Shown here piece by piece: positions 1 to 14,920 of a stretch of 64,000 nt of DNA. The notes below the pieces were generated by a model that saw nothing but the letters and a program-made list of their open reading frames with translations, was not told where the DNA came from and did no database searches. Source of the stretch: Mycoplasma sp. CAG:956 (GTDB taxonomy: Bacteria > Bacillota_I > Bacilli_A > RF39 > UBA660); NCBI GenBank assembly GCA_000433475.1, contig HF993109.1:133712-197711 (forward strand), given 5' to 3'. The translations under genes were made by a program, and so were the position numbers. Numbering within the stretch: the first letter of the stretch is position 1; every line of letters begins with the position of its first letter.

Positions 1-1
1 T

Positions 2-853
2 TCATATAAAAGTGATGGTACTTTAGATGAAATGTATGAAAGAATATCAATGCTAGATGACGGTGAGAAAAAGGCCAAAGCCTTCTCTAAATATGAGCAA
101 TTATGTCGCAGTGTTGAACAAAGTCAAGGCATTGAAAAAATACTTGGTGATAATTTAAGTCAAGACGGTAAGTATGTTGTTTTCTTACCCGTTGGTCGCA
201 AAAAAGATGGTACCTATTATAATAGTGAAGATGGTAGTAAAATAAGTAGACAACAGGCTGTTTTAATAATGGAAGATTATACTATTTTAATTAGACAATA
301 TTTATATTCCAATGAGTATATGAAAATTCATGGTGATAAGTTATTATCTATTTATGAAAAGATTACTAAAAAACAAGAGTTATCTAAATATGTTGTTTTC
401 TTACCAGTTAGACGTAAAAAAGATGGAAGTTATTATAATAGTGAAGATGGAAGTAAAGTAAGCAAACAACAGGCTGTTTTAATAATGGAAGATTATACTA
501 TTTTAATTAGACAATATTTATATTCTAATGAGTATATGAAGATACATGGTGATAAGTTATTATCTATTTATAATAAAATCATTGCGAAACAAGAACTATC
601 TAGTGAAGATAAAGACTTCTTAAATAAAGAACAAGATAACATTATGTTACTAGATATGGTTAAAATTAAACATAAACCAGCCGTCTTAAATACCTTCAAT
701 AGTACTATAGTAAGTGTGATTGCTAGACACCAAGATTGGGAAAAATTAGATAAAAAAACTCTAAAGATAAGAATAGAAGCCAAGACTTCTGATATGGTTG
801 ATACAAACTCGCTTCTAAGTTACTATAGTAATAGTAAAAATGTTATCTACTGA
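2..853 (+). CDS. 5'-partial N-terminal part of a large tandem-repeat protein, terminated 4 codons after a frame-shifting 247-bp duplication (continues as ORF 840..4355 if one repeat copy is removed)
   Basis: Reading frame is open from window start; contains a 2x74-aa in-frame repeat; last 82 aa are re-encoded in another frame at start of next ORF. Confidence 0.5.
   Translation, partial: SYKSDGTLDEMYERISMLDDGEKKAKAFSKYEQLCRSVEQSQGIEKILGDNLSQDGKYVVFLPVGRKKDGTYYNSEDGSKISRQQAVLIMEDYTILIRQYLYSNEYMKIHGDKLLSIYEKITKKQELSKYVVFLPVRRKKDGSYYNSEDGSKVSKQQAVLIMEDYTILIRQYLYSNEYMKIHGDKLLSIYNKIIAKQELSSEDKDFLNKEQDNIMLLDMVKIKHKPAVLNTFNSTIVSVIARHQDWEKLDKKTLKIRIEAKTSDMVDTNSLLSYYSNSKNVIY
165..608 (+). repeat. 2 x 222-bp in-frame tandem repeat (74-aa unit KYVVFLPV.RKKDG.YYNSEDGSK.S.QQAVLIMEDYTILIRQYLYSNEYMKIHGDKLLSIY)
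   Basis: Direct comparison of nt 165-386 with 387-608; >90 percent identical. Confidence 0.8.
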
Positions 854-1088
854 AGATAAAGATTTCTTAAACAAAGAACAAGATAATATTATGTTACTAG
901 ATATGGTTAAAATTAAACATAAACCTGCCGTCTTAAATACATTCAACAGTACCATAGTAAGTGTGATTGCTAGACACCAAGATTGGGAAAAACTGGATAA
1001 AAAAACTCTAAAGATAAGAATGGAAGCCAAGACTTCCAATATGGTTGATACAAACTCGCTTCTAAGTTACTATAGTAATAGTAAAAAT
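602..1088 (+). repeat. 2 x 247-bp tandem duplication (unit length not divisible by 3) spanning the ORF1/ORF2 junction
   Basis: nt 605-841 and 852-1088 encode the same 80 aa (SEDKDFLNKEQDN...LLSYYSNSKN) in two different frames; ~93 percent nt identity; copy offset 247 nt. Confidence 0.85.
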
Positions 1089-4000
1089 AAATATGAATTA
1101 GCCGAATTTAATAAAGAAACTAATGGTAAACCTAAGTTGTTATTTGTTATGGATAAATTAAACGAAGGAGCCCATTTAAAAGGAGTAAAGGGTATTGTCT
1201 GGTTACGTCCATTAAGTGTTGATTCAAGAATACTATTCTATCAACAGTTAGGTAGATGTATTCATTCTTATCCTGATGGTCATATATTTACCGAAGAAGA
1301 ACGCCCAATAGTAATGGATTTAGTTAATAATATAAATACCGTTAACTTAAAAAGAAATCAATCTCCAATAAATGATTTAGAAGATTTGAAAACTATTATA
1401 GCTTGGATAAATGATAATGGTGGTAAACTTCCTAATAAGAATAGTAATATTTTAGAAGAAAAGAATTATGGTTTAAAATTAGATGTAATTTTATATCGCT
1501 ATATTAAATATTTTAATAATCAAGAAGAATTAAATAGCGTAAAAAATAAAAAAGTAATAGAGGAAATCTTAAGATTAGGTTCCCTAATTGACTTATGGAA
1601 TATCAAAATAGACGAACCGACAAGACAAAGAAAAGAAAAAGAATCAGAAAGAGATGAAGAAAAATTTTTACAAGGATTTTTACAAGTCGAAAGTTCATTC
1701 CGTGATTTTGTTGATTCAAAAGAAGAAATAGATGAGTTGGCATCGCCTGAGTCTACTTTCGATAAGATATTTAATTATTTGACTATTTTAAAAAATCAAG
1801 GGGTTGACATAAATAGTATTAGTAAGTGTGATAAATTGAAGGTAATTAAAACTGATGGTAATTATTTTCTTCAAATAATAAAAAATAAAAGAAAAAAAGG
1901 AAATGGTAAAACAGTTATTATAAATGAAGAAGAATATAAGGAACCGAGCTTAATTTGGATAGGAAGCTATGTCTATGCCTTTAGACAAGGAAAAAATAAT
2001 AAGGATTCAAAAAGTCCAGACTTAGAGGCTGACCAAATTAGTAGATTAAAGACTTTGAATTTCATTTTTGATTGGGAAGTAGATCCTATATTGAATCCAA
2101 GAAGTTTTGAAGATTATATCTTACTCTTAAAAGAGATGCAAAATTCTAAAGATAAGACTGGATATGATATAAACAATATTAAATTTTTAGAAGTAGTAAG
2201 AATATCAAAAATAAATGGTGAGTATGAGTTTGAATATTTTGCTAATAGAGAAGAAGCAAGAAAAAAATATGGCGAAGATGAAGAAATAATTGGAATAGGA
2301 CGCATTATTAATTGCTTTAAAAGAGGAAAAAATATAAATGAAAAAGATTTAACTGCTGAACAGATAAACGAGTTAAGAAATACTGGTTTAATGGTTGTAA
2401 CTGAAAAAGAAAGAGACCATATAATGATGCCCAAAAATTTTGATGATTATGTTAAAGTTTTACAGGCTTTGCAAAATGCTAAAGATAAGACAGGTTGTGA
2501 TATAAATAATATTAAATTTTTAGAGGTAGTAAGAATAATCAAAATAAATGATGAGTATGAGTTTGAATATTTTGCTAATAGAGAAGAAGCAAGAAAAAAA
2601 CATGGTGAAGATGTAGAAATAATTGGGGTAGGCGATGTTATTTATTGGTTCAAAAAAGGAAAAAGCCGTAGTGGAAAAGATTTAACTGTTGAACAGATAA
2701 ATTGGTTAAGAGATATTGGCTTGATGGTTGTAACTGAAAAAGAAAGAGACCCTATAATGAAACCCCAAAATTTTGAAGATTATGTCTTACTCTTAAAAGA
2801 GATGCAAAATTCCAAAGATAAGATTGACCGTGATATAAATGATATTAATAAGAGAAAAGTAGTAAGAATAACCAAAATAAACGATGGGTATGAATTTGAA
2901 TATTTTGCTAATAAAGAAGAAGCAAGAAAAAAATATGGCGAAGACGAAGAAATAATTGGAATAGGAGTAGTTATTAATTATTTTAAAAGAGGAAAAAGCA
3001 GTAGTGGTCAAAAAGATTTAACTACTGAACAGATAAAGCAGTTAAGAGATATTGGCTTGATGGTTGTAACTGAAAAAGAAAGAGATTCTATAATGAAGCC
3101 AAAATATTTTGAAGATTATGTCTTACTTTTAAAAGAAATGCAAAATACCAAAGATAAGACAAGTCGTGATATAAATAGTATTAAATTTTCAGAAGTAGTG
3201 AAAATAACAAAAATAAATGATGATTATGAATTTGAATATTTTGCTAATAGAGAAGAAGCCAGAAAAAAATATGGTAACGATGTAGAAATAATTGGAATAG
3301 GCCTAATTATTTATTGCTTTAAAAGAGGAAAAAGCAGTAGTGGTAAAAAAGATTTAACTGTTGAGCAGATAAAGCAGTTAAGAGATACTGGCTTGATGGT
3401 TGTAACAGAAAACGAAAGAGACCCTCTAATAGAGCCTAAAAGTTTTGATGACTACCTTCTGCTTTTAAAAGAAATGAAAAAGTTCAGAGATAAGACAGGT
3501 CGTGATATAAATGATTTTAAACCAAAAGAAGTAGTGAAAATAACAAAAATAAATGATGAGTATGAGTTTGAATATTTTGCTAATAGTGAAGAAGCAAGAA
3601 AAAAATATGGTGAAGATGTAGAAATAATTGGAATAGGCCTAATTATTTATTGGCTTAAAAAAGGAAAACTTAGCAATCGCGGAAGAGATTTAACTGTTGA
3701 GCAGATAGAAGGGTTAAGAGATATTGGTCTAAGGGTTGTAACCGAAAAAGAAAGAGACACTATAATGGAGCCTAAAAGTTTTGAAGATTATGTTGAACTT
3801 TTAAAAGAATTACAAGAAAATAAAATTGACATCAATGTAATTAAAGTCACAGATAAAATAAGAATTATAAAAAATGATATCGGTTATGATTTTCAAATTG
3901 TTCATAAAAGCAAAGTAATGGTAAATGGTAAAACGACAATTGCTAATAAAGAAGCATATTTTCAGAATGATTTAATGGCGATAGGGATAAAAATTAATCA

Positions 4001-4355
4001 CTTAAGGAAAGGCAAATATTCTGATAAAACATACCTAACCATAGACCAAATGAAAATATTATTAAGCATAGGCTTTAAATTTAATAAAGGAATAGAAGAT
4101 AAAATATATAAACAAGAAATATGTAAGAATCATAATATTGATTTAAAAATAAATGATAAAATAATTGAAAGAATATCAAAAATAGAATTAATAAGTAAGA
4201 TTAACTTTTTAGAAGCAAGTAATTTAGAACTAGTAGATAATGCCGGTAAACTAATAGATATATTTAGTATGAGTAGTATTGATATTCAAGATAACTATGG
4301 TATATCTTTAGAGTCTATAATAAATACTTATGGAAAAGGAGAAACGAGAAAATGA
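840..4355 (+). CDS. Giant HA-like tandem-repeat protein (1171 aa), no signal peptide, conserved family C-terminal module
   Basis: ATG start; ~7 tandem ~112-aa modules (..P.SFEDY..LLKEMQN.KDKTG.DIN.IKF.EVV.I.KIN.EYEFEYFANREEARKKYGEDEEIIGIG.II..FKRGK....KDLT.EQI..LR..GLMVVTEKERD); second half of module resembles HA domain; C-terminus ...ISKIELISKINFL...GKLIDIFSMSSIDI..NYGISLESIINTYG shared with three neighbours. Confidence 0.75.
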   Translation: MLSTEDKDFLNKEQDNIMLLDMVKIKHKPAVLNTFNSTIVSVIARHQDWEKLDKKTLKIRMEAKTSNMVDTNSLLSYYSNSKNKYELAEFNKETNGKPKLLFVMDKLNEGAHLKGVKGIVWLRPLSVDSRILFYQQLGRCIHSYPDGHIFTEEERPIVMDLVNNINTVNLKRNQSPINDLEDLKTIIAWINDNGGKLPNKNSNILEEKNYGLKLDVILYRYIKYFNNQEELNSVKNKKVIEEILRLGSLIDLWNIKIDEPTRQRKEKESERDEEKFLQGFLQVESSFRDFVDSKEEIDELASPESTFDKIFNYLTILKNQGVDINSISKCDKLKVIKTDGNYFLQIIKNKRKKGNGKTVIINEEEYKEPSLIWIGSYVYAFRQGKNNKDSKSPDLEADQISRLKTLNFIFDWEVDPILNPRSFEDYILLLKEMQNSKDKTGYDINNIKFLEVVRISKINGEYEFEYFANREEARKKYGEDEEIIGIGRIINCFKRGKNINEKDLTAEQINELRNTGLMVVTEKERDHIMMPKNFDDYVKVLQALQNAKDKTGCDINNIKFLEVVRIIKINDEYEFEYFANREEARKKHGEDVEIIGVGDVIYWFKKGKSRSGKDLTVEQINWLRDIGLMVVTEKERDPIMKPQNFEDYVLLLKEMQNSKDKIDRDINDINKRKVVRITKINDGYEFEYFANKEEARKKYGEDEEIIGIGVVINYFKRGKSSSGQKDLTTEQIKQLRDIGLMVVTEKERDSIMKPKYFEDYVLLLKEMQNTKDKTSRDINSIKFSEVVKITKINDDYEFEYFANREEARKKYGNDVEIIGIGLIIYCFKRGKSSSGKKDLTVEQIKQLRDTGLMVVTENERDPLIEPKSFDDYLLLLKEMKKFRDKTGRDINDFKPKEVVKITKINDEYEFEYFANSEEARKKYGEDVEIIGIGLIIYWLKKGKLSNRGRDLTVEQIEGLRDIGLRVVTEKERDTIMEPKSFEDYVELLKELQENKIDINVIKVTDKIRIIKNDIGYDFQIVHKSKVMVNGKTTIANKEAYFQNDLMAIGIKINHLRKGKYSDKTYLTIDQMKILLSIGFKFNKGIEDKIYKQEICKNHNIDLKINDKIIERISKIELISKINFLEASNLELVDNAGKLIDIFSMSSIDIQDNYGISLESIINTYGKGETRK
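1750..4100 (+). repeat. Array of ~7 tandem 333-339-bp (111-113-aa) coding repeats; five central copies (approx 2088-3771) near-identical, flanking copies degenerate
   Basis: Repeat starts at ~2088, 2421, 2754, 3090, 3426, 3772 read directly from sequence. Confidence 0.85.
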
Positions 4356-4672
4356 TATTTGATAAATACTTAAATGATACTTATTTAGATATCTTATATA
4401 GTAATTATAATTTAGATTATTTAAAATCAATTGATCCTAATAACTTTGTTGAAATATATAACTTACTTAAAAATAAAGGCTTCTATTTTATAGAAGATAT
4501 TATAATTAATTATATAGATATTTTTGAGTTAGATAGTTATTACTTAAATAAAGTTTTAACTTACTTAGAAAGTAAAATGGGTAAAGATTATATTAAAAGA
4601 ATTGGTCTTAATATGACTATTTTAGATAAAATAATCGATACTACAATAAATCTAGAAATGAAAGAAGACTAG
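4352..4672 (+). CDS. Small hypothetical protein (106 aa) translationally coupled (ATGA overlap) to the giant repeat gene
   Basis: ATG overlaps TGA stop of upstream gene; GGAG ~10 nt upstream; no recognisable motif. Confidence 0.45.
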   Translation: MIFDKYLNDTYLDILYSNYNLDYLKSIDPNNFVEIYNLLKNKGFYFIEDIIINYIDIFELDSYYLNKVLTYLESKMGKDYIKRIGLNMTILDKIIDTTINLEMKED

Positions 4673-4939
4673 CAAGTAACTAAACTGTTAAAGAAATTTA
4701 GCAGTTTTTTGCAAATATCAGTCACATGAAGAATATTTAAAAAAATTGTAAAAAGATCAAATTTAATCGTTGACGTGTTATGATAACAATAGGCATTAGA
4801 ACAAAAAAATATAATGTAATAGTGTTTTTGAAGAAAAATTAAATAAAACTTTGATGTGTAGAAGGTCAAAAGAACCATTACAAAGGAATGCTTAATTTAG
4901 ATGTGCATTTTGTATTTAGGTTACTTGTATAATGTAGTT

Positions 4940-5180
4940 AAGATATTTCTTAACTATATTTTTATATGTATACCTTGCAAACTTCATATTATAAATAACA
5001 TAATAACTTACTGATACTATATCGTCATAAAACTAAAAATTGTATTAAAATTGGTATTTGGCTTTCTAAACAACGTCACTTATTTTATCAAAATAAATTA
5101 ACCCCTAATAAAATAATATCTTTAAAAAACATTGGCATGGTTTAGAATATTAAAACCTATAAAGAAATATCTAGATATCT
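4940..5180 (+). pseudogene. Decayed HA-domain repeat fragment
   Basis: Translation ...HNNLLILYRHKTKNCIKIGIWLSKQRHLFYQNKLTPNKIISLKNIGMV* matches HA consensus (HG.L.IP..Y.T.DG..LG.WL..QR..Y....L....I..L..IGMVW) but with in-frame stop (TAG in place of the TGG Trp codon), no start, flanking AT-rich decay. Confidence 0.5.
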
Positions 5181-5378
5181 AAATACCAAAGAAAATTCAT
5201 GCCAACCTATAATAATTGCTAAAAATATTAATGCTTCTATAAAAATTCTAATTCTAAGAGTCTAAATTTTACTAAAAAACATTAAAATAATAAAATTTAC
5301 TATTATTAAATTAATTTTATGCTTCCAATTCTTAAATAATGTGGTATTATAAAACAACCTCAAGAAAGGAAAAAAAAT

Positions 5379-6530
5379 ATGCCTAAAATTAATCAACCAG
5401 CCTCTAAAATCAGAATGTCATTTGATGAATGGTTTCCTGTAGCCCAAAAATATTATCAAGAACATAAAAATCTCTTAGTACCCCTAGATTATGAAACTAA
5501 AGATGGTAAAAAGTTAGGAAAATGGATAGCCAGTAAAAGAAAAGATTATGCTAATAATTTATTATCCTTAGAAAAAATTAAGGCTTTAGATAGTATTGGT
5601 ATGGTTTGGAGTATCAACGAAAAGAAATGGAATGATATGTTTAATCTTTTAATAGAGTACAAAAATATCCATGGTAATTTAGATATATCATCTTCATATG
5701 TAACCTTAAGTTGTGTAACTTTAGGCATTTGGCTAAGAGAACAACAAAATTCCTATCTTAGGGGTACCCTAAAAGAAGAAAGACAAGAAAAGTTAGAAAG
5801 TATTGGCATTATTTGGCAAACCAATGAAACAAAATGGTATGAAATGTATAAATATGCTAAAGAATATCAAAAAGAACATGGCACTTTAATAACTACCAAG
5901 AATTATATTACTCCAAATGGTAAGTCTCTAACTGAATGGTTACAAGCCCAACGTAGTGGCTACCACAAGAAAACATTAAAACCCGAAAGAATAAAACTTC
6001 TTGAAGCCATTGGCATGGTCTGGAGTATAAATCAAAGTTATACTTGGCATGATATGTATTTACTTGCCCAAGAATATCAAAAAGAACATGGCAATCTAAT
6101 TATTCCTAGAAATTATAAAAGTAAAAATGGCTTAAATTTAGGCTACTGGCTTTATAAAGAAAAACTAAAATATCGTCAAGGAAAATTAGCACCAGAAAAA
6201 ATTATTGCCTTAGAACACATTGGTATCGTTTGGACTAACAAAATTAATCATGACATTTCTAAATATTTAAGAAAACTAAAAGAATCTGACAATCCAATTA
6301 TTATCGATGAAAAAATTAATGCGGATATTTTAAATAATATTTCTTTAATCGAATTAGAAAGTAAAATTAAATATATAACCGATATGGGAGCCCTACCAAT
6401 AGATAACACTGGTCGTTTAATAGATATATTTACTATAAGTAATACTGATATGGAAGAAAGATACGGCATATCTTTAGAAGCCATGATTGAATCATTTGAA
6501 GTAAGCAGTGCTAGAAAACTATATTATTAA
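5379..6530 (+). CDS. HA (helicase-associated) domain repeat protein, 5 tandem HA repeats plus family C-terminal module
   Basis: RBS AAAGGA; repeats of W..(F/Y)....Y...H.NLLVP..Y.T.DGK.LG.WI...R..Y....L..E.I..L.SIGMVW; C-term ...NISLIELESKIKYI...G.LIDIFTISNTDMEERYGISLEAMIESF. Confidence 0.75.
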   Translation: MPKINQPASKIRMSFDEWFPVAQKYYQEHKNLLVPLDYETKDGKKLGKWIASKRKDYANNLLSLEKIKALDSIGMVWSINEKKWNDMFNLLIEYKNIHGNLDISSSYVTLSCVTLGIWLREQQNSYLRGTLKEERQEKLESIGIIWQTNETKWYEMYKYAKEYQKEHGTLITTKNYITPNGKSLTEWLQAQRSGYHKKTLKPERIKLLEAIGMVWSINQSYTWHDMYLLAQEYQKEHGNLIIPRNYKSKNGLNLGYWLYKEKLKYRQGKLAPEKIIALEHIGIVWTNKINHDISKYLRKLKESDNPIIIDEKINADILNNISLIELESKIKYITDMGALPIDNTGRLIDIFTISNTDMEERYGISLEAMIESFEVSSARKLYY

Positions 6531-6547
6531 TATAACAATCGAATTAG

Positions 6548-6667
6548 AAAGAAAAACGTAATGATAACATTTTAAAATGCTTATTCCTAGTAGATAAGCA
6601 AGGCAAATTAATAGACATATTCAGTATGTCAAATTATGAAACCAAAGAAAAATACGGTGTTAGATAA
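6548..6667 (+). pseudogene. Remnant of the family C-terminal module (decayed partial duplicate of 6340-6500)
   Basis: Encodes ...LVDKQGKLIDIFSMSNYETKEKYGVR* with no start codon; preceded at 6533-6560 by a near-copy of the ...aatcgaattagaaag... segment found inside the upstream gene. Confidence 0.45.
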
Positions 6668-6734
6668 TATAAGAAAATATTATCTATAATGGCATTAATA
6701 TATAATTTATAAATTAAATAGGAAGTGACAAAAC

Positions 6735-9359
6735 ATGAATGAATTATTTAATATGACTAATTGTTATACAGATACTGACTATTATTATTTTTATCAAGAT
6801 TTAAATAAAGATAATAAGTTTAATTTTTCTGTTTATAATAATCATACTTTAAAAGACTTACTAAAAATAGTAGAAACTAAATATGGTAAAGATACCAGTT
6901 GTCTTTCTCTAAATGTTTTAACCAATGTTAGTTTAATCTATGGCAGTAATGACTTTATAAAAAAATATATTATAGTTAAAATACCAAAAGTAATTTTAAA
7001 ACAAAAAAAGTTTAAGGAAATAGTAAAAAATATTAATTATTATTTTAATGACGATCAAAAACAAATATTATTTAAAATATATCCCAAAGAAAAAATAAAA
7101 CAAGAATATGATCATTTTTTAAATCCTCAAAATTTTCTAGACTATGCTAATATTTTAAAAAAATTACAAGAAGCTGGATACGACTTAAATGACATAAAAT
7201 TTGATAGTAAATTAAAAGTTGAAAAAGTAAATGATAGTTATAAATTTACTATTATTAGAAAAAAATTAAAAAAAGTAGGTCAAGTTTATGTTATAGATAA
7301 TAAAACTGAGTATAATGATCCTAATCTAATTAAAATAGGTCGCAAATTATATTATTATGAAAAGGGTAAGAAGTACCAATTTGAAGAAAGCATAGATTTA
7401 AATGCCGAAGAAATAAAAACACTACGTGATATTGGATTATATGTTATTTCAGAAAAAAATAGAGATCATATTTTATACCCTAAAAATTTTGAAGATTATT
7501 TTAATCTTTTGAAAAAATTACAAGAATCAGGTATTGATATTAATAGCATTATAGCTAGTGATAATTTAAGAATAATAAAATTTAATAACATTTACAAGTT
7601 TGAAGTAATAAAGAAAAATGTCAAAAAAGCTAAAGATGATAGTAATAACACTTTAAATAACCTAGAATCCAATCAAGTAAACATAATAAAAATTGGTAAA
7701 AAAGTTACTGCTTTTAGAAAAGGTAAAAATTCCGTTGCCACCGATAGTGAACCTTTAAGTGATGATAATTTAGAAAATCTGCAAAGCATTGGCTTTAATA
7801 CCCCTTATCTAAAAAGATTAGAAAGAGAAATAAATCCTAAAACTTTTACTGATTATTTTAATCTTTTAAAAAAATTACAAAATTATGGTGTTGATATAAA
7901 TAAAATAACTAGTAATGATAAAGTAAAAGTTATCAAAATAAATAATGATTTTAGCTTTAAAATTATAAAAAGAATAGTAAAAACAGATAAACAAGGTCAA
8001 AAAATCACAATAAATAGCGATGAATATTATAAAGAAGACCTAATACCAATAGGCTATAAAGTAGTGGCCTTTAAAAAAGCCAAACAAGGTCCCGATAAAG
8101 ATAGTCCTTATCTTACCGAAGAAGAAATTAAAAAATTACAAAGTATTGGTTTAGAAGTAATAAAAGAAAGAGATATAATTTTAAATCCTAAAAGTTTCCT
8201 TGATTATATGGCTATTTTAAAAAAACTCCAAGAAGATGGTTACAATCTTAATGATATCTATTTTACCGATAAGTTAAAAATAACTAAAGAATCAAATAAA
8301 TATAAGTTAGAAATTATAAAAGAAGACTCTAAAGAATATAAAATACCAGGTTTAATGACCATCGGTCAAAAACTATATTGTTTTAAAAGAGGAAAATATA
8401 ATAATAGTCCTAGTAGTAGAGATTTAACCCCAGATGAAATAGCTATTTTAAATACCTTAGGTTTTAAATTAGCTATTGAAGAAAAAAAATCCATTGATTA
8501 TATTGAATTATTAAAAAGATTAAAAGAATCTGGTTATGATATAAATAAGATTAAATATTATGATAAAGTAAAAATAACTAAAAATAATCATGAATTTAAA
8601 TTAGAAATTATAAATGAAAATGATCCATTATATAACCAACCAAATTTAATATTAATCGGACCACACGTTTTATCTTTTAAAAAAGGAAAAAAATTTCAAT
8701 ATTCAGGACCAACTGATTTGAGTTCTGATGAAATAACTAGATTACAGAATATCGGTTTAGTAATATTAAATGATCATGTATTGTATCCGCAAAGTTTTAA
8801 TGATTATTTTAATATTTTAAAACTTTTACATGAGTCTGGTTATAATATAATGGATATCAAGACTACCAGTCGCCTTAAAGTAACAAAAGAAAATGGTAAA
8901 TATTTCTTTAAAATTATTAACAAGGAAGATCAAGAATGGCAAAATAAAGATTTAATTTTTATTGGTCGTAAAGTAAAATCTTTTGAAAGTGGTAAAAATT
9001 CTCCTGGTAATCACTCTAGTTATTTAACTGTAGTAGAAATAAATAATCTCCTTAGTATTGGTTTTACTTTTAAAAAGAAAATCGAAGACATTATTTATAA
9101 AAGAGAAATATGTAAAACTTTTAATATCGATATAAAATTAAATCAAGAAATAATAGATAGAATATCTAAATTGGAATTAATAAGTAAAATTAAATATTTA
9201 ATTAAAGAAAAGAATATGCCTATATTAGATAATAATGGTAATTTAGTAGATATTTTTACCATGAGTAGTCTCGATATAGAAGAAAAATATGGCATATCTT
9301 TAGATACTATAATTTCTACTTATGGTTATAAGCAAGTAAAAAAGTTAAATTTAATATAA
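6735..9359 (+). CDS. HA-like tandem-repeat protein (874 aa), ~7 divergent ~110-aa modules, family C-terminal module
   Basis: Modules .NP..F.DY..LLKKLQE.G.D.N.I......K..K.N..Y.F.II.K.......I.....Y.....I.IG.K...F.KGK........L...EI..L..IG; C-term ICKTFNIDIKLNQEIIDRISKLELISKIKYL...NGNLVDIFTMSSLDIEEKYGISLDTIISTYG. Confidence 0.7.
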   Translation: MNELFNMTNCYTDTDYYYFYQDLNKDNKFNFSVYNNHTLKDLLKIVETKYGKDTSCLSLNVLTNVSLIYGSNDFIKKYIIVKIPKVILKQKKFKEIVKNINYYFNDDQKQILFKIYPKEKIKQEYDHFLNPQNFLDYANILKKLQEAGYDLNDIKFDSKLKVEKVNDSYKFTIIRKKLKKVGQVYVIDNKTEYNDPNLIKIGRKLYYYEKGKKYQFEESIDLNAEEIKTLRDIGLYVISEKNRDHILYPKNFEDYFNLLKKLQESGIDINSIIASDNLRIIKFNNIYKFEVIKKNVKKAKDDSNNTLNNLESNQVNIIKIGKKVTAFRKGKNSVATDSEPLSDDNLENLQSIGFNTPYLKRLEREINPKTFTDYFNLLKKLQNYGVDINKITSNDKVKVIKINNDFSFKIIKRIVKTDKQGQKITINSDEYYKEDLIPIGYKVVAFKKAKQGPDKDSPYLTEEEIKKLQSIGLEVIKERDIILNPKSFLDYMAILKKLQEDGYNLNDIYFTDKLKITKESNKYKLEIIKEDSKEYKIPGLMTIGQKLYCFKRGKYNNSPSSRDLTPDEIAILNTLGFKLAIEEKKSIDYIELLKRLKESGYDINKIKYYDKVKITKNNHEFKLEIINENDPLYNQPNLILIGPHVLSFKKGKKFQYSGPTDLSSDEITRLQNIGLVILNDHVLYPQSFNDYFNILKLLHESGYNIMDIKTTSRLKVTKENGKYFFKIINKEDQEWQNKDLIFIGRKVKSFESGKNSPGNHSSYLTVVEINNLLSIGFTFKKKIEDIIYKREICKTFNIDIKLNQEIIDRISKLELISKIKYLIKEKNMPILDNNGNLVDIFTMSSLDIEEKYGISLDTIISTYGYKQVKKLNLI

Positions 9360-9459
9360 AATAAAATACTATTAAGAAAAAACACTTAATAGTATTTTTA
9401 ATATTGCTAAATTTAAAAAAAGTAGTATAGTATAGAAAATTAATTAAAAAGGGGATTTT

Positions 9460-10857
9460 ATGATTAAAAAAAGTATAAGAAAAAATCCAAAGGATAATTT
9501 TGATGAGTGGTTTAAAATAGCAGCATATTATTATAAAAAACATAACAATCTATTAGTGCCCGCTAACTATTTAACCGAGGATGGTAAAAAATTAGGAGAG
9601 TGGATAATTTATATTCGAACTAAATATAATTCTGATGACCAAAAAATAACTAAAGAGCAAAAAGAAATGCTAGATTCTATTGGTATGGTTTGGAACTTAT
9701 ATGATTATAGATGGCAAGAAAGATTTAATCAAGTTAAAAAGTTTTATGATGAATATGGAACCATAGAACTTTTACCAACCTATCAGGGAAAAGAAGGCTT
9801 AAAACTCTTAAACTGGATAAAATTTCAAAGAAATATTTACTATAGTAAAAGTAAGAAACCAAAAGATCTAGAAAAAATTGCTAAATTAGAAAGTATTGGC
9901 GTCATTTGTCATCATAAAGATGAAATGTGGGTTTCCATGTATAACTTAGCTTTCTTATATTATAAGAAAAACAATAATCTATTGATTCCTGCTTGTTATG
10001 AAACTACTCTTGGTAAAAAACTTGGTATCTGGATAAGAAATCAAAGAAAAAGTTATTCTGATGGTAATTTATCTGAAATTAAAATCGCAGCCTTGGAATC
10101 TATTGGCATGGTTTGGCATGTTTATGAAAATAAGTGGAACCTAATGTATAAAGAAGCCTTAACTTATTATCAAAAATATCATACTATCAGTATTTATAAA
10201 GACTATAAACCAACTTATGTAACCAAAGAAGAACTATGTCAGTGGTTAGCAACTCAAAAGATATATTATAAACAACATAAAAATTTAACTCTTGAGCAAT
10301 ATAAGAAACTAAATTTAATTAAAATAGACTTTGACTATCAAGAAGATAATTGGAATTATATGTATAACTTGGCAACTAATTACTATTTAGAAAATGGTCA
10401 TTTACTAATTCCTAGAACCTTTAAATCTGAAGGTAAGAATTTAGGTATTTGGTTAGAATCACAACGTCAACATTACCAAAAACAAAAACTTTCTGAAGCA
10501 AAAATTCTTCTTTTAGAATCTATCGGTATCATTTGGCAACCGAGAAAAAATCTTTCATCTATATATAATTATTTAGATGAAAATTATCCTTTAATTGATA
10601 AACGACTTAACAGGGATGTTTTAAACCGTATTTCCTTACTAGAACTAATTGCTAAAATTAATTATTTAATTTGTTGTAAACATACTTCCTTTATTTATAG
10701 TAATGGGCTTTTAAAAGATATATTTTCTATGAGTAGTATAGCTATCAAAAATGATCCTAACTATGGTATTTCCTTAGAAGAAATAATTAATACCTATGGT
10801 AAAGAATATATTTTAAAATATAATAAAAATATGAAAGGTAAAACTTTAGACTTATAA
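9460..10857 (+). CDS. HA (helicase-associated) domain repeat protein, 6 tandem HA repeats plus family C-terminal module
   Basis: RBS AAAGGGGA; HA repeats (..W...Y......Y.......L.P..Y.T..GKKLG.WI..QR..Y......E.KI..LESIGMVW); C-term LNRISLLELIAKINYL...NGLLKDIFSMSSIAIKNDPNYGISLEEIINTYG. Confidence 0.75.
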   Translation: MIKKSIRKNPKDNFDEWFKIAAYYYKKHNNLLVPANYLTEDGKKLGEWIIYIRTKYNSDDQKITKEQKEMLDSIGMVWNLYDYRWQERFNQVKKFYDEYGTIELLPTYQGKEGLKLLNWIKFQRNIYYSKSKKPKDLEKIAKLESIGVICHHKDEMWVSMYNLAFLYYKKNNNLLIPACYETTLGKKLGIWIRNQRKSYSDGNLSEIKIAALESIGMVWHVYENKWNLMYKEALTYYQKYHTISIYKDYKPTYVTKEELCQWLATQKIYYKQHKNLTLEQYKKLNLIKIDFDYQEDNWNYMYNLATNYYLENGHLLIPRTFKSEGKNLGIWLESQRQHYQKQKLSEAKILLLESIGIIWQPRKNLSSIYNYLDENYPLIDKRLNRDVLNRISLLELIAKINYLICCKHTSFIYSNGLLKDIFSMSSIAIKNDPNYGISLEEIINTYGKEYILKYNKNMKGKTLDL

Positions 10858-10948
10858 GAAGAAAGAGAAAATTTACTAATTTCCCTTGCTTTTTTTTTCT
10901 ATTTATAAGATAATTAAGAAGTATAGATAGTAAGGAGTCGTAAAAAAT

Positions 10949-13561
10949 ATGGAATATGGTATCGATTATATATTAAAATTACCAACTGAAGATATAAAAA
11001 CTTATTTAGAAAGTGCTAGTATAATAGATATCCTAGCCATCTTAGAAAATATCAAAAAACGTAAGGAAATGGATTATGCTTCTTTAAACAAATTAGAAAA
11101 ATTAGAAGAGCAAATTAAAATAAATAAAAATTACCTTACTGATATCGATAAACGTATAAATTTTGCTACTAAAACTAATGCTCCTAAAGTAGAAGTTGAT
11201 TTATTATGGGAAGAATATAGTCGTTATGATGCCATTATCGATGATTTAACTAGTAAAAAAGAACAATTAATTCAAGGATTTAATGATAAAAAACAAGCCA
11301 TTTTTACTTTAGCATGGAATATGATCTTAGAAGCTCCTGTATCTAAATTAGAAGATTACCGAAACAGCCTTATCACATGGCTAAAAAATAGAATAGAAGC
11401 TATTGAAACTAATAAGAGCAACAGGGAAATAACTACCAATACACTTTTAGAAGATAGAAACTTTACTAAAGAAGATCTAACTGTTAAATCAATTGATGCC
11501 GAGATTAAAGAAATGGAATCTCAAGTTCTAAATCATGAACTTATTTTAAATGAAGAAACTATTGGGAAGATTAAATCATTAAGAGCTAAAAAAGAATCAT
11601 TAGAACATGAAACTTTTACTTTTGTTTGCACAGAAAAGATAAAAACGTCTCTAAAAACTATTAGTAATGATATAACTAAATTACAGATGGAATTATCTAA
11701 CATTATTCAAATGGACATTGAATCTTTAAAAGAAATGATTTTAAGTGATTATGCTCAAGGCAAAGAAGAAATAAAATTAGCCAACTACGTTCGTATTTAT
11801 CGCTCTTATTTAGAAAATATTAGTAAAGTACCTCTTACTTTAAAAGCAGCATATCGTAATATTTGCCTAAACTATGCTAATCTTTTAAATTCCATAGAAA
11901 ATCCTAGCTTTGAAGGGGAAACTCTTAATGATTTAGATATTAAATTAAAAGAATTACATAATTATATAAAAACTTTAGAACAATATAAAACTAAAAAAAA
12001 TGATAAAACTACCGAAACTAAGTTCTTATATACTACTGTAAGACAACAAGGCTTATTTGAACTTCCTTTCTCTAAAGATAAATGGTTATCTTATTTTGGT
12101 AAATATTTTGAATCCTTACTTAACGAAATTAAACCATTAGAAGAAAAGAATAAAGAATATATCTCTTTAACAACAGTTAGTCTAAAGAGTAAAAAGATAG
12201 AAGAAGAATTAGACTTATATCGTAAAGACTTAAGAAGTATGTTAGATGAACTATATAACAAAGTTTTATCCATATATTTAAAGAATAATTTATATATTAA
12301 TGTTAATGTTTATGATTATCGTGATACCGAAACATTTACTAAGTACTTAGAATATCAAACTATTAGTATCGATAAAGAAATAGCAAGTGTTAAAACTACT
12401 ATTGAAGGATTAAATAGTAAGAAGAGTAATATCTTAGAATTAATTAATGATACTTATAGTAAGATTGATACTGATATTAAAGCTAAATTAAATAGTATTT
12501 TTAATGGAACTTATGTAAAAGAAGAAGAACAAGAAGAAAAACCTCATCATTTCTTTGCAAGTCCTACTACATTAGAACCTAGTTATAATGATACTTTTGA
12601 TGATACAACTAGTAATTTAGAACCTATAAGTAAGGTAGAAGAAGAACCAGAAGTATCTGAATTTGATTCTTTCTTTGCTACTGATATTCCTTTTAAAGAT
12701 GATGATACAGAAGAAAATAATGAACTACCAGAAGAAGCTCCTACAAGACCTAAACATGAATTAGAACCAGATGAAGTTCCTTTGAAAGAAAAAGAAATCA
12801 AAGATGAACAAAGTAACAATTCTAGCATAACCACCTTTAATCCCGATGATATCTTTGGTAGTACATCAAATACTTTAGATAATGCTTTAGAAGAAGAGCA
12901 AAAACAAGAACCAGTAGTTTCAAAAGAAGAAGATGATACGGTAATTTCTTTTGATAGTGAAGATATAGCATCAACAAAGGCCTCAGAAAAAAAAGAAGAG
13001 GCTAGTGAAGCTAGTGCAGTATCTGATGATATAAACTTTGATGATGCTATATCATCATCTGATAGAGAAGCTTTTAAAGAACTACTTGAACCTCAAAAAG
13101 TGCCAGATTTTAATACCATAATTAATACTCCTGAACCAAGTACTAAAGAAGAAAAAAACAAAATCAAAAAAAGAGGACTTAAAGTAATTAAACAAGAACC
13201 AGTAGTTTCTAAAAAAATGTCAAAGAAAACACCAGAGGTAGTTTCAAAAACAACTGTTAAAACGGATGCTACTGAGATTAAAGAACGAATCGAAAACAGC
13301 CAAAATGATAGACAAAGTAAAAATGTACCACCACTATTTAATCCGGCTAGTGCTAGTGATGTAAAAAGTGAATACAATGATACTAATGCTCCAATTGATT
13401 TAAATGCTTTTCTAAATGGCAACCTTTCAAATCCAACAGAAAAACAAGAAACTAAAGAAGTTGATGATAAAACTAAAAAATTAACTTTAAGTCAAGATGA
13501 TAATATAAATTTGATGGACTTTTTAAACCAAATTGAAAATAACGATGCTAAAGTAGCTTAA
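10949..13561 (+). CDS. Hypothetical 870-aa coiled-coil protein with long acidic Ser/Glu/Pro-rich disordered C-terminal half
   Basis: RBS AAGGAG; heptad-like K/E/L-rich N-terminal 520 aa; C-terminal ~350 aa dominated by E, D, S, P, T. Confidence 0.7.
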   Translation: MEYGIDYILKLPTEDIKTYLESASIIDILAILENIKKRKEMDYASLNKLEKLEEQIKINKNYLTDIDKRINFATKTNAPKVEVDLLWEEYSRYDAIIDDLTSKKEQLIQGFNDKKQAIFTLAWNMILEAPVSKLEDYRNSLITWLKNRIEAIETNKSNREITTNTLLEDRNFTKEDLTVKSIDAEIKEMESQVLNHELILNEETIGKIKSLRAKKESLEHETFTFVCTEKIKTSLKTISNDITKLQMELSNIIQMDIESLKEMILSDYAQGKEEIKLANYVRIYRSYLENISKVPLTLKAAYRNICLNYANLLNSIENPSFEGETLNDLDIKLKELHNYIKTLEQYKTKKNDKTTETKFLYTTVRQQGLFELPFSKDKWLSYFGKYFESLLNEIKPLEEKNKEYISLTTVSLKSKKIEEELDLYRKDLRSMLDELYNKVLSIYLKNNLYINVNVYDYRDTETFTKYLEYQTISIDKEIASVKTTIEGLNSKKSNILELINDTYSKIDTDIKAKLNSIFNGTYVKEEEQEEKPHHFFASPTTLEPSYNDTFDDTTSNLEPISKVEEEPEVSEFDSFFATDIPFKDDDTEENNELPEEAPTRPKHELEPDEVPLKEKEIKDEQSNNSSITTFNPDDIFGSTSNTLDNALEEEQKQEPVVSKEEDDTVISFDSEDIASTKASEKKEEASEASAVSDDINFDDAISSSDREAFKELLEPQKVPDFNTIINTPEPSTKEEKNKIKKRGLKVIKQEPVVSKKMSKKTPEVVSKTTVKTDATEIKERIENSQNDRQSKNVPPLFNPASASDVKSEYNDTNAPIDLNAFLNGNLSNPTEKQETKEVDDKTKKLTLSQDDNINLMDFLNQIENNDAKVA

Positions 13562-13595
13562 GTTTAATAGATAATAGTAAATACATAAAAAAATT

Positions 13596-14069
13596 GGTTC
13601 AATAAAATCTAGTGTGAAGAGAGATGATAAAATTTCATCTCTTTTTATGTGGTAATATGTAGTAAATAATAATAGGAAGGCGAGTATAGATGAAAGATTA
13701 TTATTTGCTAATAGGATTAAATAGTAAGGAGGTTAAAATAATAATGGATTAATAGAAATTACTATTGAGAATAGGAAAAAGAAAGTAAGGTGTCCTGTCT
13801 GTAATAAATTTACAAGTTCAGTACATGATAAATTAAAGCCTATAAGAAGTGTTTATTTAGATAGTTGTGGTTCAACAAGAAACAAAAATATCTCCAACAT
13901 TAAAAATAAGAAATAAATTTTTTACTCGATTATCAAAATTTTAATAATATTAAAAACGTTCAAAAAATAACTAAAAAAATCATATCAAAAAAAATGTAAA
14001 AAAATCCGTAAATTCCTTATGTTATAAGGCATCATGCAGATTTTTACTTCACACTAGATTTTATTGAAC
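13596..14069. mobile_element. MITE-like internally deleted ISL3-family remnant bounded by perfect 24-bp inverted repeats
   Basis: GGTTCAATAAAATCTAGTGTGAAG at 13596-13619 is the exact reverse complement of 14046-14069; interior encodes fragmented ISL3-like transposase N-terminus (MKDYYLLIGLNSKEVKII.. then ..RCPVCNKFTSSVHDKLKPIRSVYL zinc-finger-like) broken by stops. Confidence 0.55.
13617..13648 (+). terminator. Rho-independent terminator hairpin (agagatga-loop-tcatctct + T-run) after 10949..13561
   Basis: 8-bp perfect stem 13620-13627/13635-13642 followed by TTTTT. Confidence 0.5.
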
Positions 14070-14121
14070 CATAATTCTTGCTTATCCTTTATCTTTGTGT
14101 TACCTTAAATTTGGTGATAAT

Positions 14122-14895: not shown

Positions 14896-14920
14896 TAAAA
14901 TTAGCATAATAGGAGTAAGT

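What the first reader, a model, noticed from the sequence alone, without database searches (positions are those of the whole stretch)
1..10857. Multigene cluster of HA-repeat and HA-like-repeat proteins that all share one ~75-aa C-terminal module
Four adjacent same-strand genes (840-4355, 5379-6530, 6735-9359, 9460-10857) are built almost entirely from tandem repeats. Two are arrays of canonical helicase-associated (HA) repeats with the pattern W..Y...HG.L.VP..Y.T.DG..LG.WI..QR..Y..G.L..E.I..L..IGMVW. The other two are arrays of a ~110-aa module whose second half is HA-like (IIGIG.II..FKRGK...KDLT.EQI..LR..GLMVV). None has a signal peptide. All four end in the same module: ...ISK(I/L)ELI(S/A)KI.(F/Y)L......D..G.L.DIF(S/T)MSS.(D/A)I....YGISL(E/D).II.TYG. 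The locus also carries decayed HA and C-module fragments and a frame-breaking duplication, which is the signature of a fast-evolving paralogous family such as an effector or variable-protein repertoire. I cannot assign the C-terminal module to any family I know. Pure HA-repeat proteins are known in actinomycetes with unknown function, but an HA-derived module family with a shared C-terminal tag is not something I recognise.
Basis: partly seen in the sequence, partly recalled or inferred. Interest (0 to 1): 0.85.

Follow-up and report, generated by a model that had tools for sequence, protein, structure and literature searches.

The report
HA-repeat helicase family with mTERF-like cap
The cluster is real. 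It is a lineage-specific expansion, in uncultured gut Bacilli, of a DNA-motor (helicase) family whose repeat arrays always end in a small, previously unnamed domain that is predicted to fold like eukaryotic mTERF nucleic-acid binders, so it is an intracellular nucleic-acid system, not a secreted effector repertoire.

Summary
Genes B (5379-6530) and D (9460-10857) carry 4 and 5 canonical HA repeats. Genes A (840-4355) and C (6735-9359) carry 7 and 6 copies of a ~110-aa module. All four end in one ~85-aa module, and decayed fragments and a frame-breaking 247-bp duplication are present.

The interpretation needs revision.
- Gene A is the 3' part of a ~2,040-aa SF2 helicase that runs off the window's left edge. 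It is intact in related contigs.
- Across 51 loci from gut Bacilli MAGs, the C-module is always the extreme C-terminus of helicase-HA-array proteins or of their motor-less derivatives.
- The helicase motor is closest to the type IV restriction enzyme SauUSI (E 4.5e-16).
- A ~107-aa gene (window 4352-4672) overlaps the stop codon of 28 of 31 helicase genes.
- Neighbourhoods often hold defence or mobile genes (AbiE, restriction-modification genes, a retron).

Best reading: a DNA-tracking motor with an HA reader array, an mTERF-like cap and partner, and motor-less paralogs. A defence role is plausible but unproven.

The parts
2..853 (+). Internal part of the giant helicase gene, entering from beyond the window's left edge (about residues 747-1030 of the 2,042-aa protein). 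It ends in a stop created by the frameshift.
   Evidence: The frame is open from base 2. It aligns to L001 5086-5710. The L001 gene is intact and carries ResIII/DEAD domains.
169..600 (+). In-frame tandem duplication (216-nt period, 72 codons, 88% identical) inside the helicase. It is absent from L001 and L002.
597..1088 (+). Frame-breaking tandem duplication (247-nt spacing, copies 95% identical) that splits the helicase gene in this assembly.
   Evidence: Both related contigs that cover this region (L001, L002) have a single copy.
840..4355 (+). Gene A as called. It is the 3' 1,171 codons of the helicase: C-lobe with motif VI (QQLGRCIHS, about 1266-1292), a linker, 7 modules and the C-module.
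1752..4094 (+). Array of 7 HA-derived ~110-aa modules. The central five also form a DNA tandem repeat (336-nt period, 83% matches).
4092..4352 (+). C-module of A, the mTERF-like cap.
4352..4672 (+). ORF106, a 106-aa partner gene whose ATG overlaps the helicase stop codon (ATGA). It has an mTERF-like fold.
4999..5260 (+). Decayed pseudogene remnant: the last HA repeat plus the start of a B-type C-module, interrupted by stops.
5379..6530 (+). Gene B, motor-less paralog: HA x4 (5421-6242) plus C-module (6249-6527).
6581..6661 (+). C-module fragment (profile positions 71-97).
6735..9359 (+). Gene C, motor-less paralog: N-domain of the giant helicase (6735-7118), 6 modules (7119-9083) and C-module (9081-9356). 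In effect it is a giant helicase with the middle region and the motor deleted.
   Evidence: It has a 73%-identical ortholog with the same architecture in L018.
9460..10857 (+). Gene D, motor-less paralog: HA x5 (9496-10545) plus C-module (10555-10854).
   Evidence: It has 466-aa orthologs (52% identical) in L018, L049, L051 and L052.

Best explanation
The locus is a lineage-specific expansion of an HA-repeat SF2 DNA-translocase family in uncultured gut Bacilli.

The basic unit, conserved across the clade, is a two-gene cassette:
1. A protein made of a SauUSI-like helicase motor, an array of 3-11 HA repeats (three-helix units reported to bind DNA), and an ~85-aa C-terminal cap.
2. A translationally coupled ~107-aa protein (ORF106).

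Both the cap and ORF106 are predicted to be short mTERF-like helical-repeat solenoids.

Proposed mechanism (inferred):
- The HA array lies along nucleic acid as the target reader, taking the place of the target-recognition domain in SauUSI.
- The mTERF-like cap closes the array.
- The cap either stacks with ORF106 into a longer mTERF-like superhelix or docks it, coupling target binding to the ATPase.

In the window's genus the family has diversified:
- Giant helicases gained a highly conserved 540-aa N-terminal region.
- In some copies the HA repeat was remodelled into a 110-aa module, with an insertion of about 40 residues.
- Motor-less copies (B, C and D here) arose by deletion of the motor. 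They keep the array and the cap, so they most likely act in trans as alternative or competing readers that plug into the same partner.

The most likely biological role is surveillance of foreign or damaged DNA (defence or anti-mobile-element). That role is inferred from the motor type and the gene neighbourhoods.
For: Shown by tool results:
- HA repeats in B and D. The HA profile hits the solved HA domain 2KTA at 5e-6.
- The intact 2,042-aa helicase in L001 has ResIII/DEAD domains, and a second giant helicase lies upstream.
- In 51 loci the C-module is always terminal, after HA or module arrays, with or without a helicase.
- In 140 representatives from a 1.84-billion-protein search, a median of 3 residues follow the C-module and none of the other locus-derived domains tested here (helicase core, N-terminal 540 aa, ORF106) lies downstream of it.
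- The helicase-core profile hits SauUSI (7CLG) at E 4.5e-16 over both lobes. There is also a weak PADLOC type IV restriction-enzyme hit.
- ORF106 follows 28 of 31 helicase genes but only 1 of 19 motor-less paralogs. It is the most conserved component.
- Module arrays occupy exactly the position of HA arrays in paralogous giant helicases. They share the last ~35 residues with HA (hhalign 1e-4) and the same pattern of conserved and variable columns.
- Of 141 ORFs within 5 kb in 44 loci, the matches include AbiEi/AbiEii (3 loci, directly upstream of giant helicases), the HpaII and MvaI/BcnI restriction enzymes, a C5 methylase, a retron reverse transcriptase, SIR2, AbiL, relaxases and resolvases.
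- Decayed AbiE lies next to the window's own gene in L001.

From the literature:
- HA domains have been reported to bind DNA (Mills 2013, cited in PMC12191111).
- SauUSI couples target recognition to ATP-driven translocation (PMC7913695).
- Prokaryotic mTERF-like repeat proteins from gut Bacillota bind DNA sequence-specifically (pTERF, PMC11417379).
Against: - No nuclease or other effector domain was found in the short helicases or in the giant N-terminal 540 aa.
- No PADLOC system matches.
- The mTERF likeness is at fold level only. Pfam gives no hit at E<=10, PDB profile searches give none, and Foldseek found nothing significant for the C-module.
- hhalign does not link ORF106 to the C-module (E 0.18), and their interaction was not modelled.
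- The three AbiE loci come from related species, so the neighbourhood signal is not independent. Many neighbours are housekeeping genes, and in the window the cluster sits next to recX, prsA and ftsK.
- The module's fold was not predicted.
Confidence: 0.55

Rival explanations
1. This is a housekeeping DNA-repair or replication-restart helicase (RadD-like) with a lineage-specific DNA-binding tail. The extra copies in this genus are neutral duplicates on their way to decay.
For: - There is a weak RadD similarity (E 1.7e-4).
- Most species show one helicase plus ORF106 per locus.
- recX and ftsK lie nearby in the window.
- The locus holds decayed fragments and a broken helicase.
Against: - Flanking genes are not conserved between species, and defence or mobile genes are frequent neighbours.
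- B, C and D are intact, identical between strains, and have full-length orthologs in several species.
- SauUSI is a far better match than RadD.
Confidence: 0.2
2. This is an RNA-directed system. The helicase and the mTERF-like parts act on rRNA or other structured RNA, as MTERF4 and mS93 do on mitoribosomes.
Against: - The motor is closest to a dsDNA translocase.
- HA has been reported to bind DNA (PMC12191111, reference 64).
- The variable copy number and genomic context are unlike those of ribosome-biogenesis factors.
Confidence: 0.1
3. One reading: a repertoire of exported effectors or variable surface proteins that share a C-terminal targeting tag.
For: - It is a multigene family with repeat-number variation and pseudogene fragments.
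- D diverges faster (52%) than its neighbour w870 (70%) in the same genome pair.
Against: - No signal peptides are visible by inspection.
- The family is rooted in a cytoplasmic helicase.
- The tag has a nucleic-acid-binder-like fold and is paired with a helicase-coupled partner.
- No secretion-system genes are linked.
- There are zero differences in B, C or D between strains.
Confidence: 0.03
4. The cluster is an assembly artefact of a repetitive region.
For: - The window's first 1.1 kb holds two staggered duplications that are absent from related contigs.
- Several related contigs end inside the cluster.
Against: Window 844-16529, which spans gene A to the start of the 1,530-aa gene, is reproduced at 99.7% in contigs L001 and L002. 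L003 and L004 reproduce the stretch from ORF106's 3' end onward at 99.98-100%. The four contigs come from ENA and Logan samples. Orthologous architectures occur in many MAG species. Only the 247-bp duplication remains doubtful.
Confidence: 0.02

Closest known systems
HA-domain (PF03457) SF2 helicases, e.g. Streptomyces TtrA and Bacteroides BVU_0683 (HA NMR structure 2KTA)
   Same: - Both have an SF2 (ResIII/DEAD) motor followed by tandem ~70-aa HA repeats.
- B and D pass the Pfam threshold, and their profile hits 2KTA.
- HA-repeat proteins are common on plasmids: 425 records, 240 of them Streptomyces.
   Different: - The plasmid matches from other bacteria end within the HA array or cover at most the first part of the C-module; none was seen to reach the protein's C-terminus.
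- None is reported with an ORF106-type partner, a 110-aa module variant or motor-less paralogs sharing a cap.
- TtrA is subtelomeric on linear replicons and is linked to conjugal transfer (bioRxiv 10.1101/2024.11.13.623437).
SauUSI, the ATP-dependent type IV restriction endonuclease (PDB 7CLG)
   Same: It is the closest solved motor. Both RecA-like lobes align (domain E 5.5e-6 and 8.2e-9, whole sequence 4.5e-16). The general layout is also shared, with the motor followed by a C-terminal DNA-reading region.
   Different: - No PLD nuclease domain was detected.
- The C-terminal region is an HA array plus an mTERF-like cap rather than the SauUSI target-recognition domain.
- There is a separate small partner gene.
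- No cleavage activity is known.
mTERF family (PF02536; MTERF1, MTERF3, MTERF4, mS93)
   Different: - There is no sequence-level match.
- Only about 2.5-3.5 repeats are present per polypeptide.
- The proteins are bacterial and cytoplasmic, and the fold is fused to, or coupled with, a helicase.
- Foldseek does not recover the link for the C-module.
- The literature states that mTERF is absent from prokaryotes (PMC12977773).
pTERF, prokaryotic mTERF-like DNA-binding tandem-repeat proteins (NAR 2024, PMC11417379)
   Same: These are mTERF-like helical repeats in proteins from gut Bacillota MAGs. They form a narrow, MAG-only family with experimentally shown sequence-specific DNA binding.
   Different: pTERF is a stand-alone array of 3-11 near-identical 35-aa tandem repeats that databases annotate as mTERF motifs. 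Here the mTERF-like parts are short, non-tandem at sequence level, unannotated, and attached to HA arrays and helicases. A direct sequence comparison was not possible because the pTERF sequences are not held.

Membership tests
HA (Pfam PF03457) | Match to the Pfam HMM above the gathering score (28.4 bits) | tested here: met
   B scores 218.7 bits (4 stretches) and D scores 227.4 bits (5 stretches). This holds for B and D only.
HA (Pfam PF03457), the 110-aa module of A and C | Match to the Pfam HMM above the gathering score, or a profile link to the solved HA domain | tested here: not met
   A scores 25 bits (below the cut-off) and C has no hit. The module profile does not hit 2KTA. Only the last ~35 residues align to HA (hhalign E 1e-4, probability 57%). 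The module is best described as an HA derivative. That description rests on partial similarity and on its position being equivalent to HA arrays in paralogous helicases.
HA (Pfam PF03457), the 110-aa module | Three-helix HA fold | not tested
mTERF (PF02536) | Sequence match to the family HMM or to solved mTERF proteins | tested here: not met
   Pfam gives no hit at E<=10 for four C-modules and two ORF106 proteins. Profile searches of PDB sequences find no mTERF protein.
mTERF (PF02536) | Left-handed helical-repeat fold built from ~30-aa units of two helices plus a short helix | tested here: inconclusive
mTERF (PF02536) | Nucleic-acid binding in organelles of eukaryotes | not testable with these tools
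   The context here is bacterial. Binding would need EMSA or SELEX experiments.
SauUSI-type type IV restriction enzyme | Helicase-like SF2 ATPase related to SauUSI | tested here: met
   Profile A6 hits 7clg_A at E 4.5e-16, with both lobes aligned.
SauUSI-type type IV restriction enzyme | N-terminal PLD-family nuclease domain | tested here: not met
   Pfam finds no nuclease family in the short helicase (L045) or in the giant helicase, including its N-terminal 584 aa at E<=1.
SauUSI-type type IV restriction enzyme | C-terminal modification-reading target-recognition domain and modification-dependent cleavage | tested here: not met
   The C-terminal region is an HA or module array plus the cap. 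Cleavage activity is not testable here.
pTERF (prokaryotic mTERF-like tandem-repeat proteins) | Tandem 35-aa repeats (3-11 units) annotated as mTERF motifs | tested here: not met
   No 35-aa tandem periodicity is present. TRF and repeat analysis find periods of 216, 247 and 336 nt only, and there is no mTERF annotation.
Secreted effector or variable surface-protein repertoire | Export signal or a linked secretion system | tested here: not met
   No hydrophobic N-terminus is seen in B, C or D by reading. No secretion-system family appears among the listed Pfam and PADLOC families for 141 neighbouring ORFs. No dedicated signal-peptide predictor was available.
Known anti-phage defence systems (PADLOC-DB 2.0) | Match of the component proteins to a PADLOC model | tested here: not met
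   The only hit is a weak mREase_IV match (2.8e-5, 20 bits) on the giant helicase. ORF106, B, C and D have none.

The most novel reading that the evidence does not exclude
The cassette is an undescribed genome-surveillance or defence system. A SauUSI-like translocase is aimed by a modular, repeat-encoded DNA reader made of HA units and 110-aa modules, whose most variable positions lie on one helix. Motor-less paralogs supply alternative target specificities in trans. On this reading it would be a TALE- or pTERF-like recognition code wired to a motor, and a second, independent bacterial lineage of mTERF-like folds relevant to the origin of organellar mTERFs.
Probability: 0.15. Interest if true: 0.85.

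Novelty: new variant of a known kind. Interest (0 to 1): 0.55.

Why it matters
- HA-repeat helicases are widespread in actinomycetes, on plasmids and in gut bacteria, but their function is barely understood. This lineage offers a compact, dissectable version: a motor, a reader array, a cap and a small partner, plus natural motor-less variants.
- The cap and its partner are unannotated families. Their predicted mTERF-like fold adds to the single earlier report of mTERF-like proteins in prokaryotes, a family still described as absent from bacteria.
- If the arrays read DNA sequence through their variable helix positions, they could form a new programmable DNA-binding scaffold.
- If the cassette restricts foreign DNA, it would be a new defence system in an uncultured, reduced-genome gut clade.

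Tried and rejected
- CBS domain for the C-module: the PDB sequence profile gave only E 0.1-0.8 hits, and the AF2 model is all-helical. Rejected.
- ORF106 as a sequence homolog of the C-module: hhalign E 0.18. Not supported at sequence level, although both are mTERF-like by fold.
- Foldseek of the C-module against PDB: nothing significant. The afdb50 library was unavailable.
- Known families for the giant helicase's N-terminal 540 aa (Pfam, NCBIfam, PHROGs, PDB single sequence and profile): nothing. My impression from the 'YYFFR...SLSS' pattern that it might be an ADP-ribosyltransferase-like domain could not be tested and is not claimed.
- Conserved synteny beyond the two-gene cassette: clustering of all ORFs in 51 loci found none. 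The apparent 'family 3' neighbour is a set of unrelated ABC transporters, and 'family 2' is a set of secreted pilin-like proteins.
- Promoter and terminator scans: no more hits than in shuffled sequence in this AT-rich DNA.
- Phage origin: ORF106 has no match in 50,697 phage records, and D has one weak HA-only match.
- dN/dS between species was not attempted because 52-73% protein identity in a 25% GC genome implies saturated synonymous sites. Strain-level differences were used instead.
- Word-indexed protein searches returned only short fragments for the C-module and the module (40 and 30 hits). The unindexed search showed the true family size, 327 clusters at 50% identity.
Full report
**1. 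What is in the window**

The window has ~25% GC and codes mainly on the + strand. Pyruvate:ferredoxin oxidoreductase, FtsK, PrsA and a RecX-like gene lie downstream, so it comes from an anaerobic low-GC bacterium.

- Pfam HA (PF03457) hits B (5379-6530) with four stretches (E 8.3e-66) and D (9460-10857) with five (E 1.5e-68).
- A (840-4355) reaches only 25 bits, below the 28.4-bit cut-off. C (6735-9359) has no HA hit.
- An HMM seeded on one 110-aa unit finds seven units in A and six in C. Its positions 44-98 also match the HA repeats of B (6e-10) and D (3e-8).
- All four proteins end in one module. Pairwise tblastn gives 1e-10 to 1e-37, and the four-way alignment has 24 invariant columns.
- No further copy of any of these elements occurs in the remaining 53 kb.
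- Remnants lie at 4999-5142, continuing to about 5260 (HA plus the start of a C-module, interrupted by stops), and at 6581-6661 (C-module).
- Two tandem duplications sit at the left edge: a 216-nt, in-frame one at 169-600, and one with 247-nt spacing at 597-1088 that breaks the frame.

**2. Gene A is the tail of a giant helicase**

The first ~300 residues of A contain SF2 helicase motif VI (QQLGRCIHS). The reading frame upstream (2-853) is open to the window edge.

An exact-sequence look-up of B returned four independent human-gut contigs (L001-L004) that carry the same gene order at 99.7-100% identity. In L001 the gene is an uninterrupted 2,042-aa protein with these parts:
- an N-terminal region of ~540 aa;
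- a ResIII/DEAD core;
- a C-lobe with an insertion;
- seven modules;
- the C-module.

A second giant helicase (1,818 aa) lies directly upstream and ends in the same way. L001 and L002 lack both duplications. The split of the gene in the window is therefore strain-specific or an assembly problem.

Protein C shares the first ~130 residues of the giant helicase (BLASTP 1e-17). In effect it is a giant helicase with the middle region and the motor deleted.

**3. The family outside the window**

*Family size.* A word-indexed profile search found only 40 (C-module) and 30 (module) mostly fragmentary hits among 5.8 billion proteins. An unindexed HMM search of 1.84 billion representatives found 327 clusters (198 with E<=1e-10). 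In 140 of them examined with my own HMMs:
- the C-module is always at the extreme C-terminus, with a median of 3 residues after it;
- 104 carry HA repeats and 6 carry modules;
- 30 are C-module-only fragments;
- none of the other locus-derived domains I tested (helicase core, N-terminal 540 aa, ORF106) lies downstream of the C-module.

*Genome scan.* A scan of one genome per GTDB species returned 51 loci. Nearly all come from 'uncultured Bacilli' gut MAGs (Hadza people, rabbit, mouse, rumen) plus Clostridium sp. CAG:710. Domain mapping of every ORF in these loci shows three architectures:
- The common one is a ~900-1,100-aa protein with an N-terminal helicase core, 4-11 HA repeats and the C-module. 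Pfam on the L045 example gives ResIII plus HA x6.
- Giant versions have the extra N-terminal 540 aa and either HA arrays (L015, L017) or module arrays (L006, L007, L009-L011).
- Motor-less proteins consist of an HA or module array plus the C-module. They often lie in runs next to helicases; L016 has five in a row between two helicases.

*ORF106.* A ~107-aa ORF overlaps or abuts the stop codon of 28 of 31 helicase-bearing genes, but of only 1 of 19 complete motor-less paralogs. In the window this is 4352-4672, whose ATG overlaps A's stop codon as ATGA. I call it ORF106.

*Flanks.* No other flanking gene family is conserved.

The conserved unit is therefore the pair of genes, and the window shows an expanded version of it.

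**4. What the parts are**

*Motor.* A profile of 12 helicase cores hits one solved structure strongly. That is 7CLG, at E 4.5e-16 with both RecA-like lobes aligned. RadD follows at 1.7e-4, and a type I restriction-modification R subunit at 6e-3. 7CLG is SauUSI, the ATP-dependent type IV restriction endonuclease in which target recognition switches on ATP-driven translocation (PMC7913695). PADLOC gives a weak type IV restriction-enzyme hit on the giant helicase. No nuclease domain was found.

*HA repeats.* The profile of the nine repeats of B and D hits the HA NMR structure 2KTA (5e-6). The paper on that structure is cited as showing that HA binds DNA (PMC12191111, reference 64). A preprint on telomeric transposons likewise treats tandem HA domains as DNA-recognition elements of TtrA helicases (bioRxiv 10.1101/2024.11.13.623437).

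*Module.* With 58 modules against 200 HA units, hhalign aligns module columns 66-103 to HA columns 34-68 (E 1e-4, probability 57%). This is the 'IG..I..FKRGK....LT.EQI..L..IG' stretch against 'LG.WI..QR......LS.E.I..L..IG'. Three further points bear on the relationship:
- A global alignment places the module's first helix on HA helix 1 and leaves ~30-40 residues as an insertion, but it is not significant.
- The module profile does not reach 2KTA.
- Module arrays replace HA arrays at the same position in paralogous giant helicases, and both repeat types have their most variable columns at equivalent places on the second helix.

I conclude that the module is an HA derivative. This is not proven structurally.

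Foldseek against PDB found nothing with E<=0.001. This is a genuine weakness of the assignment.

hhalign does not connect ORF106 with the C-module (E 0.18). Two unrelated sequences, encoded back to back, are thus independently predicted to have the same rare fold. That agreement is my main reason for accepting 'mTERF-like' despite the Foldseek result.

**5. Evolutionary behaviour**

Identity between the window and other species:

| Component | Identity |
|---|---|
| ORF106 | 81-98% |
| Helicase tail (A) | 68-77% |
| C | 73% |
| B | 57% |
| D | 52% |
| Flanking 870-aa gene, in one of the genomes where D is 52% | 70% |

- The giant N-terminal 540 aa is 76-93% identical across species.
- Repeat number varies from 4 to 7 modules and from 3 to 11 HA units.
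- Against the 99.7%-identical contig L001, 43 of 50 differences fall in two patches of gene A (850-1402 and 4207-4323), four fall at the start of ORF106, and none fall in B, C or D. This pattern suggests gene conversion between helicase paralogs rather than hypervariation of the motor-less genes.

**6. Genomic context**

I scanned 141 ORFs lying within 5 kb of the cassette in 44 loci.
- Pfam and PADLOC matches among them include AbiEi/AbiEii pairs in three loci, the HpaII and MvaI/BcnI restriction enzymes, a C5 methylase, a retron reverse transcriptase, SIR2, AbiL, PDC-M03A, 5-hmdU DNA kinase, relaxases and resolvases. The AbiEi/AbiEii pairs lie immediately upstream of giant helicases in L006, L007 and L011.
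- The same set also contains clear housekeeping genes such as mraW, exonuclease VII, sufB and ftsZ.
- In L001, the contig that is 99.7% identical to the window, the gap between the two giant helicases holds a broken ORF106 copy and decayed AbiEi/AbiEii remnants.
- ORF106 has no match in phage records.
- HA repeats occur on 425 plasmids, mostly Streptomyces. Those matches end within the HA array or reach at most the first part of the C-module.

This context is suggestive of variable, defence-rich regions. It is not conclusive, because the AbiE cases come from related species.

**7. Mechanism proposed**

Shown by tool results:
- the architectures;
- the motor's affinity to SauUSI;
- the HA identity of the repeats in B and D;
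- the strictly terminal position of the cap;
- the coupling of ORF106 to motor-bearing genes;
- confident helical-repeat models that resemble mTERF proteins.

Inferred:
- The HA or module array binds along DNA as the target reader.
- The cap terminates the array and, together with ORF106, forms or recruits a longer mTERF-like superhelix.
- This assembly gates the ATPase, as the target-recognition domain does in SauUSI.
- Motor-less paralogs keep the cap and so can engage the same partner or substrate in trans, as alternative or competing readers.
- The role is surveillance of foreign or damaged DNA.

I put 0.55 on this overall picture. About 0.35 of that is on the defence role specifically.

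**8. Comparison with known families**

The family works like, and belongs to, the broad class of HA-domain SF2 helicases (TtrA type). It differs from them in the cap, the partner, the 110-aa module and the motor-less paralogs.

It resembles SauUSI in its motor only, so it should not be filed as a type IV restriction enzyme. The nuclease and the target-recognition domain were looked for and not found.

The cap and ORF106 resemble mTERF proteins in predicted fold only, so membership of PF02536 is not met.

Reviews state that mTERFs are absent from prokaryotes (PMC12977773). One 2024 study described 'pTERF', a family of 35-aa tandem-repeat, mTERF-like, sequence-specific DNA binders from gut Bacillota MAGs (PMC11417379). 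The present domains are not tandem 35-aa arrays, and they could not be compared directly with pTERF sequences.

**9. Verdict**

It is not an effector repertoire. It is a new variant of a known kind, HA-repeat helicases, with two new small families of predicted mTERF-like fold.

Interest is 0.55. The function is unknown. The defence reading and the 'repeat code' reading are open and testable.

Noticed in passing
L001 1880-2849 (the contig 99.7% identical to the window; region just upstream of the window's left edge): The gap between the two giant helicase genes holds a broken copy of ORF106 and decayed remnants of an AbiEi/AbiEii toxin-antitoxin pair. The same pair is intact directly upstream of giant helicases in L006, L007 and L011.
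   Followed up: partly
L001 2849-4480; window 6735-7118 (N-terminus of protein C): The N-terminal ~540 aa of the giant helicases is 76-93% identical across species, which makes it better conserved than the repeat arrays. It matches nothing in Pfam, NCBIfam, PHROGs or PDB. Its first ~130 aa recur in protein C with changes at conserved positions (YYFFRALN becomes YYFYQDLN). It may be the effector domain.
   Followed up: partly
window 850-1402 and 4207-4450, compared with L001: Almost all differences from a 99.7%-identical strain fall in two patches of the helicase gene, and most are synonymous. The next 12 kb has only three differences, all intergenic. This looks like gene conversion from a paralogous helicase copy.
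   Followed up: partly
protein P0023 (795-bp ENA contig): This is a chimeric ORF in which residues 1-73 of ORF106 continue directly into a C-module ('...YLEDKIYKQEIC...'). It is either a real rearrangement joining the two mTERF-like parts or an assembly chimera.
   Followed up: no
L045 7181-10237, residues ~387-427 (short helicase, just after motif VI): A ~40-aa stretch hits several small PHROG families (Arc-like repressor, the C-terminal region of endonuclease VII, and families of unknown function). It reads like a SAP/HeH-type DNA-binding motif inserted in the motor.
   Followed up: no
window 10949-13561: An 870-aa acidic, coiled-coil-rich protein with no family match borders the cluster. 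It is a conserved downstream neighbour in two other species (L051 at 70% and L012 at 48% identity).
   Followed up: partly
window 14095-14895, 14921-19513 and 19516-20496: A RecX-like gene is followed by a 1,530-aa protein with no family match, and then by a 326-aa protein that matches only part of glutamate-5-semialdehyde dehydrogenase (ProA), well below the family cut-off.
   Followed up: no
window 26829-29381: An 850-aa protein carries an N-terminal prepilin-type methylation motif (N_methyl). This is unusually large for a pilin-like protein. Similar secreted proteins of unknown function cluster next to the HA genes in L017, L018 and L052.
   Followed up: no
plasmid records such as NZ_CP109587.1 2120-3148 and NZ_CP108083.1 2142-3170: HA-repeat helicase genes lie within ~3 kb of the ends of many Streptomyces linear plasmid records (TtrA-type). 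HA proteins occur on 425 plasmids in total, including 109 from Pseudomonas.
   Followed up: no
alignments of 58 modules and 200 HA repeats (loci L005-L055): In both repeat types the highest-entropy columns lie directly after the conserved (L/I)G and at the two positions after the W/I of the second helix. This is the pattern expected for specificity-determining residues on a recognition helix.
   Followed up: partly
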